Shown piece by piece: positions 3,006 through 34,854 of a stretch of DNA of 64,000 nt. Under the pieces are notes generated by a model, which was not told the DNA's origin, made no database searches, and saw only the letters and a list, made by a program, of their open reading frames with translations. The stretch comes from an uncultured Gammaproteobacteria bacterium. GTDB lineage: Bacteria > Pseudomonadota > Gammaproteobacteria > SZUA-229. The position numbers and the translations under genes were made by a program. The stretch spans positions 83,022 through 147,021 of the forward strand of contig CAVQDO010000019.1 of assembly GCA_963711255.1 (NCBI GenBank), given 5' to 3'. The first letter of the stretch is position 1. Each line of letters opens with the position of its first letter.

Positions 3006-3878
3006 ATGCCTATACAATTTTCACTAAAATTAGTTAGCACCGCGTTAATCCTGTTAATGCTATCAGCCTGCTCCATGAATAGCATGATGGTAAAAATGTC
3101 CATGCCAATGATGGAAAGCGGTATCGAGGCGATGCAACAGGAATCCGACCTGCAGCTGGCGGAAGACGCCATGCCCGCCAATATAAGCATGCTAAGAGGC
3201 ATGATTCAACTGGACCCGGAAAATAGCCAGTTACACGTTTATGCTGCCCAGGCCTACTACGGTTTATCTTATGGCTTCAATGAAGACAGTGATTCAATCC
3301 GCGCAGGAAAACTTTATAAACGCGGACTTAAACACGGACTGACTGCTTTACGATTAATGGGCTTTAAAAATGCGGAAAAGCTCAAGCCGAAAGAACTCGA
3401 AAAACAGTTAAAAACACTTGGCCCGGACAGCGTTGCCGCGCTGTTCTGGACGGCCAGCAACTGGGTAAAGTGGATAGATCTTAATCGTGATGATGCGGCC
3501 AGTTTGATTCAGCTGCCAAAACCAACATCAATGATGCAGCGCGTGCTGGAACTGGATGACACATTTTATTACGGCGGCGCTCATATGTACTTTGGTGTTT
3601 ATTATGGCGCACGCGCTCCAACCCTGGGCGGCGACTATAAAAAGTCAAAAAAACATTTTGACCGGGCACGAAAAATCACCAATAACAAGCTACTGATCGT
3701 CGACCTGCTGCAGGCAGAGTACCTTGCCAGGCAAATGTTTGACCAGAATGATTTTCATCAGCGTCTAAGCAGAATCATTGAAGCACCCGAGGATCTTTCA
3801 CCGGATTTAATGCTGCTAAATCAAATAGCCAAACGTAAAGCGACCTTACTGTTAAATAAGGAAAGAAAATGGTTTTAG
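3006..3878 (+). CDS. TatT-like TPR protein associated with a TRAP transporter
   Basis: Lipoprotein signal (LLMLSACS) and TPR-like helical content, immediately upstream of DctP/DctQ/DctM genes (TPAT arrangement). Confidence 0.55.
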   Translation: MPIQFSLKLVSTALILLMLSACSMNSMMVKMSMPMMESGIEAMQQESDLQLAEDAMPANISMLRGMIQLDPENSQLHVYAAQAYYGLSYGFNEDSDSIRAGKLYKRGLKHGLTALRLMGFKNAEKLKPKELEKQLKTLGPDSVAALFWTASNWVKWIDLNRDDAASLIQLPKPTSMMQRVLELDDTFYYGGAHMYFGVYYGARAPTLGGDYKKSKKHFDRARKITNNKLLIVDLLQAEYLARQMFDQNDFHQRLSRIIEAPEDLSPDLMLLNQIAKRKATLLLNKERKWF

Positions 3879-4933
3879 CAGGAAAATTTTTTCAACTTAA
3901 AAAGTTATCGCCTGGTAAATTTATTTCCGGCCTTTCAATACTTGCACTGTGCCTTCTATGCTGGCAAAACGTAATCGCACAGGAAACTTACACCTTAAAA
4001 TTTGCCACGCTCATACCTACCGGTACCGCATGGACAAAAACCTTCGATAACTGGATACAGGACATCGAAGATAAAAGCCAGGGCCGCCTAATATTTAAAA
4101 TGTACCCTGGCGGTGTTATGGGTGATGAACCCGACGTTTTACGGAAAATCCGAAAGGGCCAGCTGCATGGCGGACTTTTTAGTGGTTACGGTATCGGGCG
4201 CATTTATTCGCCCGCGCGAATTCTGGAACTGCCTTTTTTGTTTAAAAATGCCGATGAATCTGATTACGTCAGAAACCAGTTAATGCCGGAAATAGAAAAT
4301 GGCTTTCGTGACAGCGGCTTCGAGCTGATCGGCTGGCCCGAAGTTGGTTTTATACATTTCTTTTCCAAGCACAAAATACAATCCATTGAGGATATAAAAA
4401 ACAGCCGCATCTGGTTATGGCAGGGCGACCCCCTGGGCGAAGCATTATTTGCTGCTGCCGATATTAAACCTGTACCGCTGTCGATTATCGATGTTTACCC
4501 GCAATTATCTGCCCGCCACGGCAGCATTGATACCGTCTACATGTCTACCTTTGGCGCTATTGCACTGCAGTGGTATTCAAAAGTAAATTATGCCACTCAC
4601 ATTTCGGTCACCAATGCCATCGGCGCCGTTGTAGTCAGCAACGATTTTTATAACACGCTGCCTGAAGACCTGCAGCTACTGCTTAAAACATCTGGCACAC
4701 AGGCAAGCGACCTGATCCGCAAGCAGACACGCCTGGAAAACATAAAAAGCAAACAGCTGTTAATCGATAATGGCATTGAGTTTCTATGGGACTGGGACAC
4801 TGCAAATATCGATGAATTTATTACCATCCGGGACAAGGCTGCTTCACATTTAATTAAAACAAACTATATACCTCAAGAGTTTTTCAATAAAACCCGATTT
4901 CACTTAAGCCATTACCGCGAACAGAATAAATAA
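3869..4933 (+). CDS. TRAP transporter substrate-binding protein (DctP family)
   Basis: Signal peptide and DctP-like periplasmic binding protein length; operon with DctQ and DctM. Confidence 0.75.
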   Translation: MVLAGKFFQLKKLSPGKFISGLSILALCLLCWQNVIAQETYTLKFATLIPTGTAWTKTFDNWIQDIEDKSQGRLIFKMYPGGVMGDEPDVLRKIRKGQLHGGLFSGYGIGRIYSPARILELPFLFKNADESDYVRNQLMPEIENGFRDSGFELIGWPEVGFIHFFSKHKIQSIEDIKNSRIWLWQGDPLGEALFAAADIKPVPLSIIDVYPQLSARHGSIDTVYMSTFGAIALQWYSKVNYATHISVTNAIGAVVVSNDFYNTLPEDLQLLLKTSGTQASDLIRKQTRLENIKSKQLLIDNGIEFLWDWDTANIDEFITIRDKAASHLIKTNYIPQEFFNKTRFHLSHYREQNK

Positions 4934-32726: not shown

Positions 32727-33476
32727 GTGGCCGAACAACTCCTTATATTTATCATTTCGCTGGTTGCCAACCTGTTTTCCGCCCTATCTGGCGGTGGCGC
32801 CGGTTTAATACAGCTGCCAGCCCTTATTTTCCTTGGCCTGCCCTTCGGACTGGCCCTCGCCACCCACAAAGTGGCGACTATCGCGCTGGGCATCGGTGCC
32901 ACGGCACGCCACCTGAAAGAAAACCGGATCGACCGTGATTTTGCCCTGGTGATGATCATTTCCGGCCTGCCCGGAGTAGTTCTCGGCGCGAGCTTTATTC
33001 TGCAAATCCCTGACCAAATCGCAAAAGTTGCTCTCGGCCTGCTTACCATGGGCCTGGGCATCTATTCCTTTCTTTCGCCCCAGCTGGGACAAACTTGCGA
33101 GTTAAAAAATCGTCATTTAAAGGGTTATATCATCGGCGGCCTGGCGTTATTCGGTATCGGTATCCTGAACGGTTCACTAACTTCGGGTACCGGGCTGTTC
33201 GTCACCCTGTGGCTAATCCGCTGGTTCGGCTTTGACTACAAATTAGCTGTCACCTATACCCTGGTTTTTGTCGGCCTGTTCTGGAATGCCTCCGGGGCGA
33301 TTACGCTGGGGCTTTTGGGTGATATTCACTGGTTATGGATTCCGGCTTTGTTACTGGGTTCTCTTATTGGCGGGTATATTGGGGCGCATTTGTCGATTGT
33401 TAAGGGGAATCGGGTGATTAAGCGGAGTTATGAGGTGGTTACTTTGTTGATTGGGTTGAAGTTGGTTTTGGGGTAG
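32727..33476 (+). CDS. TauE/SafE family sulfite/anion exporter
   Basis: 249 aa polytopic protein with an internal duplication and glycine-rich helices typical of TauE/SafE (DUF81). Confidence 0.7.
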   Translation: MAEQLLIFIISLVANLFSALSGGGAGLIQLPALIFLGLPFGLALATHKVATIALGIGATARHLKENRIDRDFALVMIISGLPGVVLGASFILQIPDQIAKVALGLLTMGLGIYSFLSPQLGQTCELKNRHLKGYIIGGLALFGIGILNGSLTSGTGLFVTLWLIRWFGFDYKLAVTYTLVFVGLFWNASGAITLGLLGDIHWLWIPALLLGSLIGGYIGAHLSIVKGNRVIKRSYEVVTLLIGLKLVLG

Positions 33477-33477
33477 T

Positions 33478-34207
33478 TTTGTTTTGTCTTTTGGTATTAA
33501 TATTTTCTGTTGTTTGCTTACTTTGGCATTGCGGTTCTCGCACCGCGGGCGAGTTACTCTTTTGCTACAGCCCAAAAGAGTAACCAGAAAAGGCCGCCGC
33601 GAACTCGATAGCCCCGGGTGAAGCGTCCGGGGAACCTGAATTTGAGGGTATCTGCTCTATTGGCGTTTGTGTTTTACGGAAATAATTATTGCTTACTTTG
33701 GCCCGAGCCGCCCCGATACGCCGTCCGGGCGTAGCGTGGCTAAATCCGCCGTCCATGGCGGATTTGCTCTACGTGTTGGCAAATTCAGCTATCGAAGGCG
33801 GGAGAGTCAAAGTCAAAAAACAGAGTCAATAGCACCAGCAGGAACACAGCAAAAAACATGGCGCGCGGCGCCATAGCTGGAGAAGCGTTTGTTTCGTTTC
33901 TTGTTTTTCTTTGTTTTTCTCCCCTTTTGTTTGCTGACTTTGGGGGCATTGGTAGAGCAAATCCGCCATGGACGGCGGATTTAGTGATGCTGCGCCTGGA
34001 CGGCGCATCAGCACGGGCTCGTAGGCAATGCGCCCAAAGTCAGGTACCCCGAGTGTTTTTCTCGGGGCAAACAAGTCGGGGCGGCATTCTTTCTGGTTAC
34101 TTTTCTTTTGCTGCAGAAAGAAAAGTAACTCGCCCGCGGTGCGAGAACCGCAAGACCTAAGTAAGCAAACAACAGTAAATATTAACGCCAACAACAAATA
34201 AAAAACG
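33478..34207. repeat. About 730 bp nested quasi-palindromic non-coding element filling the convergent tauE/pyrE intergenic gap
   Basis: Outer arm 33495-33565 is the reverse complement of 34105-34190. Inner arm 33700-33783 is the reverse complement of 33940-34040. A perfect 33-nt pair ctaaatccgccgtccatggcggatttgctctac lies at 33740-33772 and 33952-33984. A central hairpin atggcgc-gcg-gcgccat lies at 33858-33874. Confidence 0.85.
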
Positions 34208-34212
34208 CAAAA

Positions 34213-34854
34213 TCAAATCCCATACTGACTACGATAACTCTCCATCGCCGCCAGATGCTCCCCAAAAGAAGAATCCGCAGAAAGGTAATCAATCAAGTCC
34301 GCCATGGTAATTATGCTGAATACATCAATCCCATAATCACGGTTAACTTCCTGTATTGCCGACAGTTCGGTCTTACCTTTTTCCTGCCTGTCCAGTGCAA
34401 TCAGAACCGCCGAGGTGTTCGCGCCTTCTGCTTTTATAATATCGACCGCTTCGCGAATGGCCGTACCGGCGGTAATAACATCATCTACAATCAGGGCGTT
34501 ACCTGTTAAAGCAGCACCGACAATCAATCCGCCTTCACCGTGATCTTTGGCTTCTTTTCGATTGAAGGCATATGGCTTGTCAATATTATGGTTCACGGAA
34601 AGCGCATAGGCGATAGCTGCGACCAGTGGAATCCCTTTGTATGCCGGGCCGAATAAAACATCGTAGTCGATTTTATTATCGATGATACTTTGCGCGTAAC
34701 AACTACCGAGTTCTGCCAGTGCATAACCGCTATTAAATAAACCGGCATTAAAAAAATAGGGGCTGACACGGCCTGACTTCAGGGTGAACTCGCCAAATTT
34801 CAGTACCTGGTATTTTATGGCCAGTTCGATAAATCGTTTTTTATTCTGCTGCAT
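34213..34854 (-). CDS. pyrE: Orotate phosphoribosyltransferase
   Basis: PRPP-binding motif ([12 protein letters not shown]) and N-terminal [17 protein letters not shown]. Confidence 0.9.

What the first reader, a model, noticed from the sequence alone, without database searches (positions are those of the whole stretch)
33478..34207. Convergent tauE/pyrE intergenic gap is one ~730 bp nested quasi-palindrome
The whole non-coding gap between two convergent genes is symmetric about a central hairpin atggcgc-gcg-gcgccat at 33858-33874. The outer arms (33495-33565 against 34105-34190) are each over 60 nt, and the inner arms (33700-33783 against 33940-34040) include a perfect 33-nt inverted pair. 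Further symmetric blocks are nested in between, so the region could fold as a single giant hairpin or cruciform on either strand. Its size and nesting far exceed a normal bidirectional terminator or a REP/ERIC unit. It is GC-rich relative to the flanks, and the symmetry yields the same peptide (VTRPRCENR) from opposite strands. Candidate interpretations are nested MITE/PATE-type insertions, a structured ncRNA, a long-hairpin precursor (retron-msd-like but with no RT nearby), or a recombination or inverted-duplication scar.
Basis: seen in the sequence. Interest (0 to 1): 0.85.

Follow-up and report, generated by a model that had tools for sequence, protein, structure and literature searches.

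The report
Head-to-head TwoAYGGAY repeat-element palindrome
The 736-bp gap is a real giant quasi-palindrome, but it is one rare, symmetric copy of a widespread modular repeat element of marine gammaproteobacteria, made of two head-to-head ~250-nt folded units that each carry the known TwoAYGGAY RNA motif, whose function is unknown.

Summary
The whole tauE–pyrE gap (33477-34212) aligns with its own reverse complement and folds as one long hairpin (z about -24). It is not a one-off structure.

- **Inner arms.** They are two divergent copies of Rfam RF01731 (TwoAYGGAY), scoring 69.5 and 53 bits.
- **Outer arms.** They are two copies of a conserved ~80-nt "A" module.
- **Half-unit.** Each half (P0/P1 stems, two GGA-loop hairpins, a small hairpin, then A) is a ~250-nt folded unit. 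It recurs at unrelated loci in other gammaproteobacterial MAGs, in more than 120 metagenome contigs, and in Psychromonas ingrahamii.
- **Usual form.** Most elements pair one TwoAYGGAY half with an alternative "E" half. The T/T form seen here is rare.
- **Same gap in relatives.** It is empty (52 nt), unrelated (204 nt), a mini A/A form, E/T in either orientation, or E/E.
- **Structure.** Covariation is strong (35 of 72 pairs change on both sides) and G·U pairs favour the outward-reading strand.

Best reading: a MITE/BIME-like modular foldback repeat sitting downstream of genes. The folded modules probably act as single strands, and the loops match the CsrA-binding consensus. The mobilising enzyme, target duplication and transcription remain unknown. 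I rate it as a new variant of a known kind, of moderate interest.

The parts
32727..33476 (+). Left flanking gene, a TauE/SafE-family membrane protein (249 aa). Its stop codon abuts the element.
   Evidence: ORF. Pfam PF01925, E = 8e-44.
33477..33516 (.). Left outer tail of the palindrome. It is T-rich and carries an ATTTAC-like motif. It pairs with 34166-34212.
   Evidence: Self-alignment. Inverted repeat I1. Other copies share only a loosely conserved ATTTAC...GTAAAT feature here.
33517..33596 (-). Left 'A' module. It has a GCGGT-loop-ACCGC hairpin and a GTTACTCTTTTG...CAAAAGAGTAAC hairpin.
   Evidence: nhmmer module profile, 85.8 bits. 92-94% identical to A modules at unrelated loci L030 and L084. 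Covariation in helices 6 and 7.
33612..33632 (-). Left small 'h' hairpin, CCCCGG...CCGGGG.
   Evidence: Sequence. It differs from the right copy by compensatory changes. Helix 5.
33645..33690 (.). A ~45-nt insertion found only in the left arm. It is bounded by two CTKAMTTTG-type copies of the P1 3' arm and disrupts P1 of the left TwoAYGGAY copy.
   Evidence: Gap in the self-alignment and in alignments A1-A3. The left copy folds poorly on its own, z = -1.4.
33669..33796 (-). Left TwoAYGGAY (RF01731) copy, the weaker of the two. Loops AUGGAC and CCGGAC.
   Evidence: cmscan 53.0 bits against a gathering score of 43, E = 7.6e-6. The nhmmer T profile covers 33600-33801.
33802..33920 (.). Centre. 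On the + strand the left side is A-rich (GTCAAAGTCAAAAAACAG) and the right side is T-rich ((TTGTTTTTC)-like).
   Evidence: Sequence. The same polarity and the GTCAAAGTCAAAAACAG signature occur in the centres of other elements.
33850..33875 (-). Central GC-rich hairpin (ATGGCGC-GCG-GCGCCAT, 33858-33874) followed on the minus strand by TTTTTT. It looks like an intrinsic terminator for transcription arriving from pyrE.
   Evidence: Terminator scan: stem 33875->33857, tail TTTTTTGCTG. Function is inferred, not shown.
33921..34081 (+). Right T unit. It comprises the P0 stem (33921-33933 with 34068-34081), the P1 stem, the TwoAYGGAY core (Rfam hit 33928-34049; loops AUGGAC and CUGGAC) and the small h' hairpin (34047-34067).
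   Evidence: cmscan 69.5 bits, E = 1.4e-9. Its fold matches the family structure, z = -4.8. Covariation in helices 1-5.
34083..34165 (+). Right 'A' module. It has the GGTTACTTTTCTTT...AAAGAAAAGTAAC hairpin and the GCGGT-loop-ACCGC hairpin.
   Evidence: nhmmer 75 bits. The hairpin is almost identical downstream of TwoAYGGAY copies in Psychromonas ingrahamii.
34166..34212 (.). Right outer tail. It pairs with 33477-33516.
34213..34854 (-). Right flanking gene, pyrE (orotate phosphoribosyltransferase, 213 aa), convergent with tauE.
   Evidence: ORF. Homologues carry Pfam PF00156 and are named orotate phosphoribosyltransferase by their sources.

Best explanation
The gap is one copy of a dispersed, modular, palindromic repeat element of MITE/BIME type.

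**Building block.** The unit is a ~250-nt 'half-unit'. It has an inner folded module closed by stems P0 and P1. That module is either T (the Rfam TwoAYGGAY motif, with two hairpins bearing GGA loops) or an alternative long hairpin, E. A small hairpin and a conserved outer module A follow.

**Full element.** Two half-units sit head to head around a short A-rich / hairpin / T-rich centre, with the A modules facing outward. The elements lie just downstream of genes, typically between convergent genes.

**This copy.** The window carries the rare symmetric T/T form. That is why the whole gap reads as one giant quasi-palindrome.

**Shown:**
- the family and its modules;
- its dispersal to unrelated loci;
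- presence, absence and isoform variation at this very gap in relatives;
- strong covariation within each half, on the strand that reads outward from the centre.

**Inferred:**
- The element spreads, or once spread, as non-autonomous mobile DNA using an enzyme supplied in trans.
- Symmetric forms arise by exchange or copying between the two arms, or between flipped alleles.
- The folded modules act as single strands. RNA is the more likely form, because the loops fit the CsrA/RsmA-binding consensus CANGGANG.
- The centre stops transcription that enters from the flanking genes.
For: **Identity of the parts**
- Two TwoAYGGAY hits in divergent orientation form the inner arms.

**Dispersal**
- The right half (33903-34152) matches L030, L067, L040 (twice) and L008 at 75-82% identity. 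The A module matches at up to 94%. No other window gene matches those loci.
- Many contigs end inside the element, as expected for a repeat that breaks assemblies.
- P. ingrahamii has 7 TwoAYGGAY copies in the original alignment. The five shown are each followed by a similar A hairpin, and in three it is nearly identical to the window's.

**Architecture census**
- E/T about 30, E/E about 12, T/T 2 (window and L040), mini A/A 7, solo halves about 25.
- An unrelated lineage (the 'Erwinia' MAG) has two ~600-800-nt T/T palindromes in convergent-gene gaps. They are collinear with each other through the centre.

**The orthologous pyrE-tauE gap (PyrE 87-90% identical where measured)**
- 52 nt and empty (L089).
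- 204 nt and unrelated (L075).
- Mini A/A plus a DUF900 gene (L080).
- E/T with T next to pyrE (L078).
- E/T flipped, with T next to tauE (L108).
- E/E (L084, L085).
- T/T (the window).
- Sources.

**Position**
- 86 of 110 outer ends abut the 3' end of a gene.

**Structure**
- On 23 T half-units, 97.3% of cells are paired. 35 of 72 pairs change on both sides, against 14.8 +/- 2.0 in shuffles (0 of 500 as high) and 7-12 with slid partners.
- G·U cells number 85 against 10 A·C cells.
- E half-units behave the same way: 32 of 68 pairs are compensatory.
- Loop 1 is A-N-GGA-N and loop 2 is C-Y-GGA-Y, with GGA unchanged in every loop the pattern could read (38 and 39 of 48).
Against: - No target-site duplication could be defined. 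Similarity among copies fades gradually beyond '...CGCAATGCCTAA'.
- No transposase or recombinase with matching ends was found in 211 loci.
- The one RAYT seen (L171) is flanked by a different REP type.
- Copy number looks low: 7 in P. ingrahamii and one element in this 64-kb window.
- The most similar copies at different sites are only ~94% identical, so there is no sign of recent transposition.
- Many sites are shared by related contigs, which points to old, vertically inherited insertions.
- The strength of structural conservation suggests a host-level function, not just a selfish repeat.
- No sigma-70-type promoter was found. The 3' end of the half-unit has no U-tract, so independent transcription is unproven.
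- The two T units in the window are only ~71% identical overall. Neither is the other's closest relative, although they share a perfect 33-nt block and two derived characters. How the T/T form arose is therefore unresolved.
Confidence: 0.75

Rival explanations
1. The gap holds two divergently transcribed small-RNA genes. Each T half-unit would be a ~240-nt sRNA made from the centre outward. It would present two GGA hairpin loops to a CsrA/RsmA dimer, as a decoy or sponge. On this view the palindrome is a by-product of two such genes lying back to back.
For: - GGA is unchanged in every loop that could be read, 38 and 39 of 48 T copies. Loop 1 plus its closing pairs reads C-A-N-G-G-A-N-G.
- TwoAYGGAY was proposed as a CsrA-binding RNA on the basis of motif matches (PMC4333381).
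- The G·U bias and the invariant G·U pairs fall on the outward-reading strand for T, for E and for A.
- Divergent pairs recur in three lineages.
Against: - No sigma-70-like promoter was found in the gap, and I saw no conserved -35/-10 upstream of P0 by eye in aligned centres.
- No GacA/UvrY-type box was found.
- The unit ends in a hairpin with no U-tract.
- There are only two GGA sites per unit.
- The left copy is damaged by an insertion.
- The alternative E module has no GGA loops, yet it occupies the same scaffold.
- No csrA gene is present in the sequence held, which is uninformative either way.
Confidence: 0.25
2. This is a REPIN-like single-stranded-DNA element. The hairpins would be recognised as folded ssDNA by a HUH/Y1 (RAYT or IS200-like) transposase, which would cut next to the conserved GTAG and copy the element.
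For: - GTAG is invariant 3 nt upstream of hairpin 1 in all 23 aligned units.
- The elements are extragenic, lie near gene 3' ends, and are mosaics of units in inverted orientation, like BIMEs and REPINs (definitions in PMC3116915 and PMC3733652).
- G·T pairs are tolerated in ssDNA, so the strand bias fits this reading too.
- A module clusters lie next to other GTAG-tagged REPs and a RAYT gene in L171.
Against: - The L171 RAYT is bracketed by its own, different REP (GTAGGGTGGGCAC...), not by T or A modules.
- The units are ~250 nt rather than 20-40 nt.
- Copy number looks like single to low double digits, not hundreds.
- No RAYT is present in the window or next to any other copy.
Confidence: 0.15
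3. This is a purely local inverted duplication, or a recombination scar, of the tauE-pyrE spacer. On this view there is no family and no function.
For: - The two arms share a perfect 33-nt block, a derived C-G pair in hairpin 1, and a 1-nt insertion seen in no other copy. Some arm-to-arm exchange at this locus is therefore likely.
Against: - The same modules occur at more than 100 unrelated loci and in other orders of bacteria.
- Each arm is as close, or closer, to copies elsewhere than to its partner.
- Relatives carry other isoforms of the same element at this gap.
Confidence: 0.03
4. This is an oversized bidirectional terminator and 3'-UTR stabiliser for the convergent genes. Its only role would be to stop and protect the tauE and pyrE transcripts.
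For: - The outer ends strongly prefer gene 3' ends, 86 against 24.
- The central hairpin plus T-tract looks like a terminator on the minus strand. There are also weak terminator-like CTCGC...GCGAG + TTACTYTTTT sites in both A modules, each facing its own gene.
- The centres of other elements also have an A-tract, a variable hairpin and a T-tract.
Against: - Relatives manage with a 52-nt gap.
- The covarying hairpin in A is GCGGN/NCCGC, not the terminator-like one. The minimum-energy fold of the gene-sense strand does not end in a hairpin plus U-tract.
- The structurally selected strand is antisense to the adjacent gene.
Confidence: 0.1
5. This is a retron-like msd or another long-hairpin precursor, processed from a single ~730-nt foldback transcript.
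For: The full gap can fold into one long hairpin on either strand.
Against: - No reverse transcriptase, or any other candidate partner gene, is among the neighbouring ORFs.
- No protein is shared across the loci that carry the element.
- Conservation and covariation support pairing within each half, not between the arms.
- The commonest isoform (E/T) cannot form the full foldback.
Confidence: 0.01

Closest known systems
TwoAYGGAY RNA motif (Rfam RF01731; Weinberg et al. 2010, PMC2864571)
   Same: - Both inner arms score above the family's gathering threshold.
- They have the two adjacent hairpins with (A)YGGAY loops and a closing P1 stem of variable length that covaries.
- As in the original description, the motif occurs in gammaproteobacteria and P1 can be long.
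- Its function is still unknown. A CsrA-binding role has been proposed from motif matches only (PMC4333381).
   Different: - Here the motif is embedded in a larger conserved unit: an extra P0 stem, a small hairpin and an ~80-nt A module.
- It is interchangeable with a different module (E) on the same scaffold.
- It is arranged head to head in ~550-750-nt palindromic elements.
- I found none of this in the literature I could search. The A hairpin is nevertheless visible in the flanks of the original Psychromonas alignment.
- The loops in this lineage are ANGGAN and CYGGAY rather than strict AYGGAY.
REP / BIME / REPIN elements of gammaproteobacteria (PMC3116915, PMC3733652, PMC3479197)
   Same: - Extragenic mosaics of palindromic units in alternating orientation, with defined linkers.
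- Mostly downstream of genes, and variable between strains.
- A conserved GTAG lies next to a hairpin.
- The elements fold as single strands.
   Different: - The units are about ten times longer and multi-hairpinned.
- Copy number looks low.
- No cognate RAYT was found. The only RAYT seen has a different REP.
- The loops are sequence-conserved (GGA), which is not a REP feature.
Bacterial MITEs that act in transcripts (Neisseria Correia/NEMIS elements, enterobacterial ERIC/IRU). This comparison rests on my own knowledge and was not checked here.
   Same: - Non-coding, bounded by inverted repeats, and dispersed.
- Present or absent between relatives.
- Tolerate internal insertions.
- Lie in transcribed intergenic regions, where the RNA hairpin can matter.
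   Different: - The inverted repeats here are ~250-nt structured half-units rather than 20-30-bp ends.
- No target duplication has been identified.
- There are alternative inner modules.
- Accessory genes are sometimes found between the two halves.
CsrB/RsmY/RsmZ-type CsrA-sequestering sRNAs
   Same: GGA motifs are presented in hairpin loops. Loop 1 fits CANGGANG. The two sites are spaced ~29 nt apart, which would suit a CsrA dimer.
   Different: - Only two sites per unit.
- No recognisable promoter, upstream activator box or terminator.
- The unit is embedded in a repeat element, and binding is untested.

Membership tests
TwoAYGGAY (RF01731) | Covariance-model score at or above the curated gathering score (43 bits) | tested here: met
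   69.5 bits for 33928-34049 (+) and 53.0 bits for 33669-33796 (-).
TwoAYGGAY (RF01731) | Two adjacent hairpins whose terminal loops carry AYGGAY | tested here: met
   Loop 1 is AUGGAC in both copies. Loop 2 is CUGGAC or CCGGAC, which has YGGAY but lacks the leading A. Across 48 family copies GGA is unchanged wherever the loop could be read, 38 and 39 copies.
TwoAYGGAY (RF01731) | A closing P1 stem of variable length, supported by covariation | tested here: met
   In helix 2, 11 of 18 pairs change on both sides. The left copy's P1 is interrupted by a 45-nt insertion.
REP/BIME/REPIN | Short (20-40 nt) palindromic unit with a GTAG or CGTC tag at its foot | tested here: inconclusive
   GTAG is invariant in 23 of 23 units, but it lies 3 nt from hairpin 1. 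The repeated unit is ~250 nt, not 20-40 nt.
REP/BIME/REPIN | High copy number per genome (tens to hundreds) | tested here: inconclusive
   There is one element in this 64-kb window. There are 7 copies in P. ingrahamii and at least 8 T copies in one MAG. The genome of this organism was not available.
REP/BIME/REPIN | A cognate RAYT gene flanked by the same repeats | tested here: not met
   The only Y1_Tnp gene found (L171 336-881) is bracketed by a different REP. No complete genome could be checked.
REP/BIME/REPIN | Extragenic mosaics of units in alternating orientation, mostly 3' of genes | tested here: met
   Architecture census. 86 of 110 outer ends face gene 3' ends.
MITE (non-autonomous transposon) | Terminal inverted repeats, small size, no transposase gene | tested here: met
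   The A/A' arms are 86 nt at 85% here. The element is 736 nt. Its only ORFs are artefacts of the repeat.
MITE (non-autonomous transposon) | Copies at unrelated loci, and presence/absence at orthologous sites | tested here: met
   Searches show dispersal. The orthologous gap is 52 nt and empty in L089.
MITE (non-autonomous transposon) | Target-site duplication at the ends | tested here: inconclusive
   The ends fade into loosely conserved A/T-rich tails, so no clean boundary or duplication can be seen. The empty sites available are too diverged to compare.
MITE (non-autonomous transposon) | A related autonomous element with the same ends | tested here: not met
   Genes found between the halves are accessory cargo: Tae4 with a probable immunity gene, a Dcm methylase, HNH, PIN, and DHFR-like and Csp-like genes. 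None is a transposase. No protein recurs across loci. Only 211 loci were examined.
CsrA-sequestering sRNA (CsrB/Rsm type) | Several GGA motifs in hairpin loops | tested here: met
   Two per T unit, with loop 1 fitting CANGGANG.
CsrA-sequestering sRNA (CsrB/Rsm type) | Own promoter and a Rho-independent terminator | tested here: not met
   No sigma-70-like site was found in the gap, and none was evident by eye in the aligned centres. The 3' hairpin lacks a U-tract.
CsrA-sequestering sRNA (CsrB/Rsm type) | Binds CsrA/RsmA | not testable with these tools
   This needs EMSA or pull-down experiments.
Retron msr/msd | An adjacent reverse transcriptase gene | tested here: not met
   The neighbours are tauE, pyrE, xthA-like, ampG-like and argB. 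No protein is shared among element loci.

The most novel reading that the evidence does not exclude
The half-units would be a previously undescribed class of ~250-nt structured RNAs. They would have interchangeable 'heads' on a common scaffold of P0 stem, small hairpin and A module. One head is T (TwoAYGGAY, with CsrA-type GGA loops) and the other is the unannotated E hairpin. These RNAs would be carried and spread by a foldback-type mobile element that settles between convergent genes. The element would also serve as a landing pad for accessory and defence genes at its centre. That would give TwoAYGGAY a biological context for the first time: a mobile, host-tolerated RNA module that titrates a global regulator or insulates transcription.
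Probability: 0.2. Interest if true: 0.7.

Novelty: new variant of a known kind. Interest (0 to 1): 0.45.

Why it matters
TwoAYGGAY has been in Rfam since 2010 with no known function or context. The evidence here changes that picture in four ways.

- **It is part of something larger.** In gammaproteobacteria the motif is one interchangeable head of a bigger, strongly covarying unit.
- **The units pair up.** They lie head to head in palindromic repeat elements downstream of genes.
- **One site, many forms.** A single chromosomal gap can carry at least six structural forms among close relatives.
- **It becomes testable.** It points to which strand is likely to fold, which RNA or ssDNA to probe, which loops to mutate, and which protein (CsrA) to try first.

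There is also a practical point for annotation. Giant intergenic quasi-palindromes of this kind are mosaics of repeat modules, not exotic single hairpins.

Tried and rejected
- **Exact look-up of PyrE.** Looking up the window's PyrE and its 100%-identical database entry found no contig. Cluster names say only 'Gammaproteobacteria bacterium'.
- **Drum motif.** I recalled it as a possible relative of TwoAYGGAY. The 2017 paper shows no such link.
- **First collection pattern.** The hairpin-loop pattern also picked up many chance hits in GC-rich genomes. Only those confirmed by Rfam were used.
- **RAYT association.** One RAYT was found, but it carries its own distinct REPs.
- **Shared neighbouring protein.** None was found.
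- **Autonomous element.** Genes lying between the halves are miscellaneous cargo, not transposases.
- **Phage carriage.** Two patterns gave no hit in viral contigs.
- **Promoters.** No sigma-70 promoter was found in the gap, and none was evident in the aligned centres.
- **A module as terminator.** A as a canonical intrinsic terminator is not supported by folding or covariation.
- **Target-site duplication and exact termini.** These could not be resolved.
- **Simple local duplication.** Each arm is no closer to its partner than to copies elsewhere.
- **Rfam matches for A and E.** There are none. The weak RNAI, sX7 and mir-4679 hits are chance.
- **csrA gene.** None is present in the held sequence, which is uninformative.
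- **Literature on Psychromonas repeats or MITEs.** Nothing relevant was found.
Full report
**1.
The gap between the TauE-family gene (32727-33476, +) and pyrE (34213-34854, -) is 736 nt long. The repeat finder reports nested inverted repeats:
- outer arms 33476-33561 / 34121-34206, 86 nt, 85% complementary;
- inner arms 33708-33772 / 33952-34016, 65 nt, 86% complementary;
- several smaller pairs.

A global alignment of 33477-34212 with its own reverse complement scores 404, against -252 +/- 30 for shuffles. The central ATGGCGC-GCG-GCGCCAT hairpin lies at 33858-33874. A perfect 33-nt inverted block is present. Either strand folds as one long hairpin with z about -24 to -26.

The symmetry has two interruptions. 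One is a ~45-nt insertion in the left arm (about 33645-33690). The other is a ~120-nt centre that is only weakly symmetric. The gap is 49.5% GC, above the window mean of 44.9% but below tauE at 52.1%.

**2. What the arms are.**
A gathering-threshold Rfam scan of the whole window gives exactly two hits. Both are TwoAYGGAY (RF01731): 33928-34049 on the + strand (69.5 bits) and 33669-33796 on the - strand (53.0 bits). They are divergent and coincide with the inner arms.

TwoAYGGAY was described in 2010 from gut metagenomes, Clostridiales and gammaproteobacteria, with no function assigned. A later motif-matching paper proposed that it binds CsrA. I found no experimental follow-up.

The outer arms are two copies of an ~80-nt module that I call A. 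It has a GCGGN-loop-NCCGC hairpin and a GGTTAC...GTAAC hairpin.

**3. The half is a unit, and it is dispersed.**
A loop-pattern scan of one genome per species, filtered by Rfam, found true TwoAYGGAY copies in several gammaproteobacterial MAGs and in a Roseburia MAG. blastn shows that the window's right half (33903-34152, T plus A) matches L030, L067, L040 (two copies) and L008 at 75-82% identity. The A module matches at up to 94%. No other gene of the window matches those loci.

The original 2010 alignment, which includes flanks, shows that the five Psychromonas ingrahamii TwoAYGGAY copies displayed are each followed by a similar GGUUACUUUUCUUUUGCUG...AAAGAAAAGUAAC hairpin. In three of them it is nearly identical to the window's. 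Seven copies are listed for that genome.

Viral contigs gave nothing.

**4. Anatomy of the family.**
I built nhmmer profiles from the alignments and mapped the modules on all loci. The repeated building block is a ~250-nt half-unit:
- a P0 stem encloses a P1-closed inner module plus a small hairpin;
- the A module follows.

The inner module is either T (TwoAYGGAY) or E. E is a ~120-nt long hairpin with no Rfam match.

Two half-units sit head to head around a centre. The centre has an A-rich signature (GTCAAAGTCAAAAACAG), a variable hairpin and a T-rich stretch.

The architecture census gives:

| Form | Count |
|---|---|
| E/T | about 30 |
| E/E | about 12 |
| T/T | 2 (this window and L040) |
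| mini A/A | 7 |
| solo halves | about 25 |

Many contigs break inside the element. The window's left half is a complete T half-unit. Its own P0 (CUUCGAUAG / CUAUCGAG) differs from the right-hand P0 (UUUUGUUUG / CAAACAAG) by compensatory changes.

A different lineage (a MAG labelled 'Erwinia') has two ~600-800-nt nested T/T palindromes, both between convergent ORFs. They are collinear with each other through the centre. The same MAG also has solo copies elsewhere.

**5. The same gap in relatives.**
PyrE homologues at 87-90% identity led to syntenic contigs. L108 came from the metagenome scan and was recognised as the same gap from its flanks. The pyrE-tauE gap there takes these forms:
- 52 nt with no module (L089);
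- 204 nt of unrelated sequence (L075);
- a mini A/A palindrome next to an extra DUF900 gene (L080, L081);
- E/T with T next to pyrE and a further insertion in the A hairpin loop (L078);
- E/T in the opposite orientation, with T next to tauE (L108);
- E/E (L084, L085, where the contigs end inside the element);
- T/T in the window.

Sources for these are.

The element is therefore an insertion relative to the short gaps. Its interior flips and becomes symmetric over short evolutionary distances.

How the window's T/T form arose is unresolved. The two T cores share a perfect 33-nt block, a derived C-G pair and a 1-nt insertion seen nowhere else. Overall, however, the units are only 71% identical, and each is as close or closer to copies at other loci. 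Exchange between the arms, or between flipped alleles, is the most economical reading. This is inference.

**6. Position and neighbours.**
Of 110 outer A ends with a callable neighbouring ORF, 86 face the 3' end of a gene and 24 face a 5' end. The ORF calling was crude and some loci are orthologous, so this is indicative only.

No protein family recurs next to the element. In five loci, genes lie between the two halves:
- a Tae4 effector with a probable immunity gene (L040);
- a Dcm methylase with a partner gene (L171);
- HNH and PIN proteins (L195);
- DHFR-like and cold-shock-like genes (L150);
- a small YCII-like gene (L144).

None of these is a transposase. One RAYT (Y1_Tnp) gene lies beside an A cluster in L171, but it is bracketed by its own, different GTAG-tagged REPs.

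**7. Structure.**
I aligned 23 non-identical T half-units and took the RNAalifold consensus of 72 pairs in 7 helices.
- 97.3% of cells are paired.
- 35 pairs change on both sides, against 14.8 +/- 2.0 in column shuffles (0 of 500 as high) and 7-12 when partners are slid by 1-3 columns.
- G·U cells outnumber A·C cells 85 to 10, or 39 to 10 in variable columns.
- Two G·U pairs are invariant.

The strand that folds is therefore the one reading from the centre outward, antisense to the adjacent gene. E half-units behave the same way: 32 of 68 pairs are compensatory, with many G·U pairs on the outward strand.

The loops are conserved in sequence. Where the loops could be read (38 and 39 of 48 copies), hairpin 1 is GCC-A-N-GGA-N-GGC and hairpin 2 is CC-Y-GGA-Y-GG, with GGA unchanged. 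From my own knowledge, the CsrA/RsmE consensus is CANGGANG.

The right T unit folds into the family structure on its own (z = -4.8). The left one, which carries the insertion, does not (z = -1.4).

One caveat applies. In palindromic DNA, arm-to-arm repair can mimic compensatory change. The strand bias and the conserved loops argue for real single-strand selection, but they cannot distinguish RNA from ssDNA.

**8. How it most likely works.**
*Shown:* the gap is a member of a dispersed modular palindromic repeat family. Its halves are independently folded, structurally constrained units, and it is polymorphic at this site.

*Inferred:*
- It is, or once was, non-autonomous mobile DNA of MITE/BIME type.
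- It is tolerated mainly between convergent genes.
- Its centre carries terminator-like hairpins. Here that is a clean minus-strand site at 33875-33857 followed by T6.
- Its T modules act as folded single strands, most plausibly RNA presenting two GGA loops to a CsrA-type protein.

*Against a simple sRNA-gene reading:* there is no recognisable promoter or terminator.

*Against a simple selfish-repeat reading:* copy number is low, no recent copies are seen (the best cross-site identity is ~94%), and conservation is strong.

*Still missing:* a target duplication and a mobilising enzyme.

**9. Comparison and verdict.**
The inner arms are members of TwoAYGGAY, and every defining feature tested was met. 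The composite behaves like a BIME or MITE, but it fails or leaves open several membership tests: unit size, copy number, cognate RAYT, target duplication and an autonomous partner.

I did not find the following described in the literature I could search:
- the larger half-unit;
- the alternative E head;
- the head-to-head pairing;
- the multi-allelic behaviour at one site.

I therefore class the finding as a new variant of a known kind, of moderate interest. It is much less exotic than a 730-nt single hairpin would be. It does give a 16-year-old orphan RNA motif a concrete and testable context.

Noticed in passing
L108:3148-3266, L085:3909-4024 and 4116-4230, L139, L144 and many others. Not present in the window.: The 'E' module is a ~120-nt long hairpin (CCCATTTAGCC...CATGCTG...TGTCTGAGCGTCTTTTGCGAG...CATGATAAC...GGCTAAATGG). 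It occupies the same scaffold position as TwoAYGGAY. 32 of 68 pairs are compensatory across 28 copies, and it has no Rfam match at E<=0.1. It looks like an undescribed structured element.
   Followed up: partly
L078:~4740-4905 (minus-strand view), L155, and the other loci with an 'A- A-' architecture (L097, L121, L167, L171, L197, L202).: A further ~70-150-nt module is inserted in the loop of the GGTTAC hairpin of A. It carries its own hairpin, GAATAACATGGATGTTATTC, whose loop ACAUGGAUGU matches the loop sequence of the TwoAYGGAY consensus. This is a true nested insertion, and it defines a sub-family.
   Followed up: partly
L171:253-288, 888-923, 954-985 (REPs) and 336-881 (gene): This is a RAYT-type Y1 transposase gene (PF01797). 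It is bracketed by inverted GTAGGGTGGGCAC...GTGCCCACGC REPs, a classic REPtron arrangement. It sits next to further REP types (GTAGGTTGGGTTAGCGTAACCCAAC; CGTTCCCACGCTCCTGCGTGGGAACG) and to A modules, so several palindromic repeat families cluster together in this lineage.
   Followed up: partly
L040:6025-7468; L171:1717-3985; L195:4228-7002; L150:774-1723; L144:9605-9925: Accessory genes lie between the two half-units of some elements. They include a Tae4 T6SS amidase effector with a probable immunity gene, a C5 cytosine methylase with a partner ORF, an HNH endonuclease, a PIN toxin, and DHFR-like and cold-shock-like genes. The centre of the element may be an insertion hot spot. Alternatively, the halves may simply mark the 3' ends of genes.
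   Followed up: partly
L030:3138-3878 and L195:8396-9133: A different, non-orthologous TauE/SafE-family gene also has one of these elements directly downstream of its stop codon, as tauE does in the window. This is probably coincidence, but I did not test it.
   Followed up: no
L108:~3290-3400; L008:~200-270: Short tandem repeats occur in the T-rich side of the element centre. L108 has about six copies of TTGTTTTTC. L008 has (TTTAG/AGTTTT)n. This suggests slippage-prone, length-variable centres.
   Followed up: no
window 33517, 33638, 33692, 33783 (-), 33934, 34035 (-), 34158 (-): Seven copies of a CTKAMTTTG-like 9-mer mark nearly every module boundary in the gap: the P1 arms, the outer tails, and both sides of the 45-nt insertion. 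The 14-mer TTGCTTACTTTGGC occurs 4 times with up to 2 mismatches, against 0.9 expected in the window. It could be a recombination or target motif.
   Followed up: partly
L080:3655-4776, L081:3655-4767: In some relatives a 370-aa DUF900 (PF05990) gene sits between pyrE and tauE next to a mini A/A palindrome. The gap is therefore also a site of gene gain and loss.
   Followed up: no
L015:668-1448 and L017:6416-7033: A MAG labelled 'uncultured Erwinia sp.' has its own sequence-distinct version of the same design: nested outer arms, two divergent TwoAYGGAY copies and a 143-nt centre. Both copies lie between convergent ORFs. Solo copies occur in L039, L055 and L069.
   Followed up: partly
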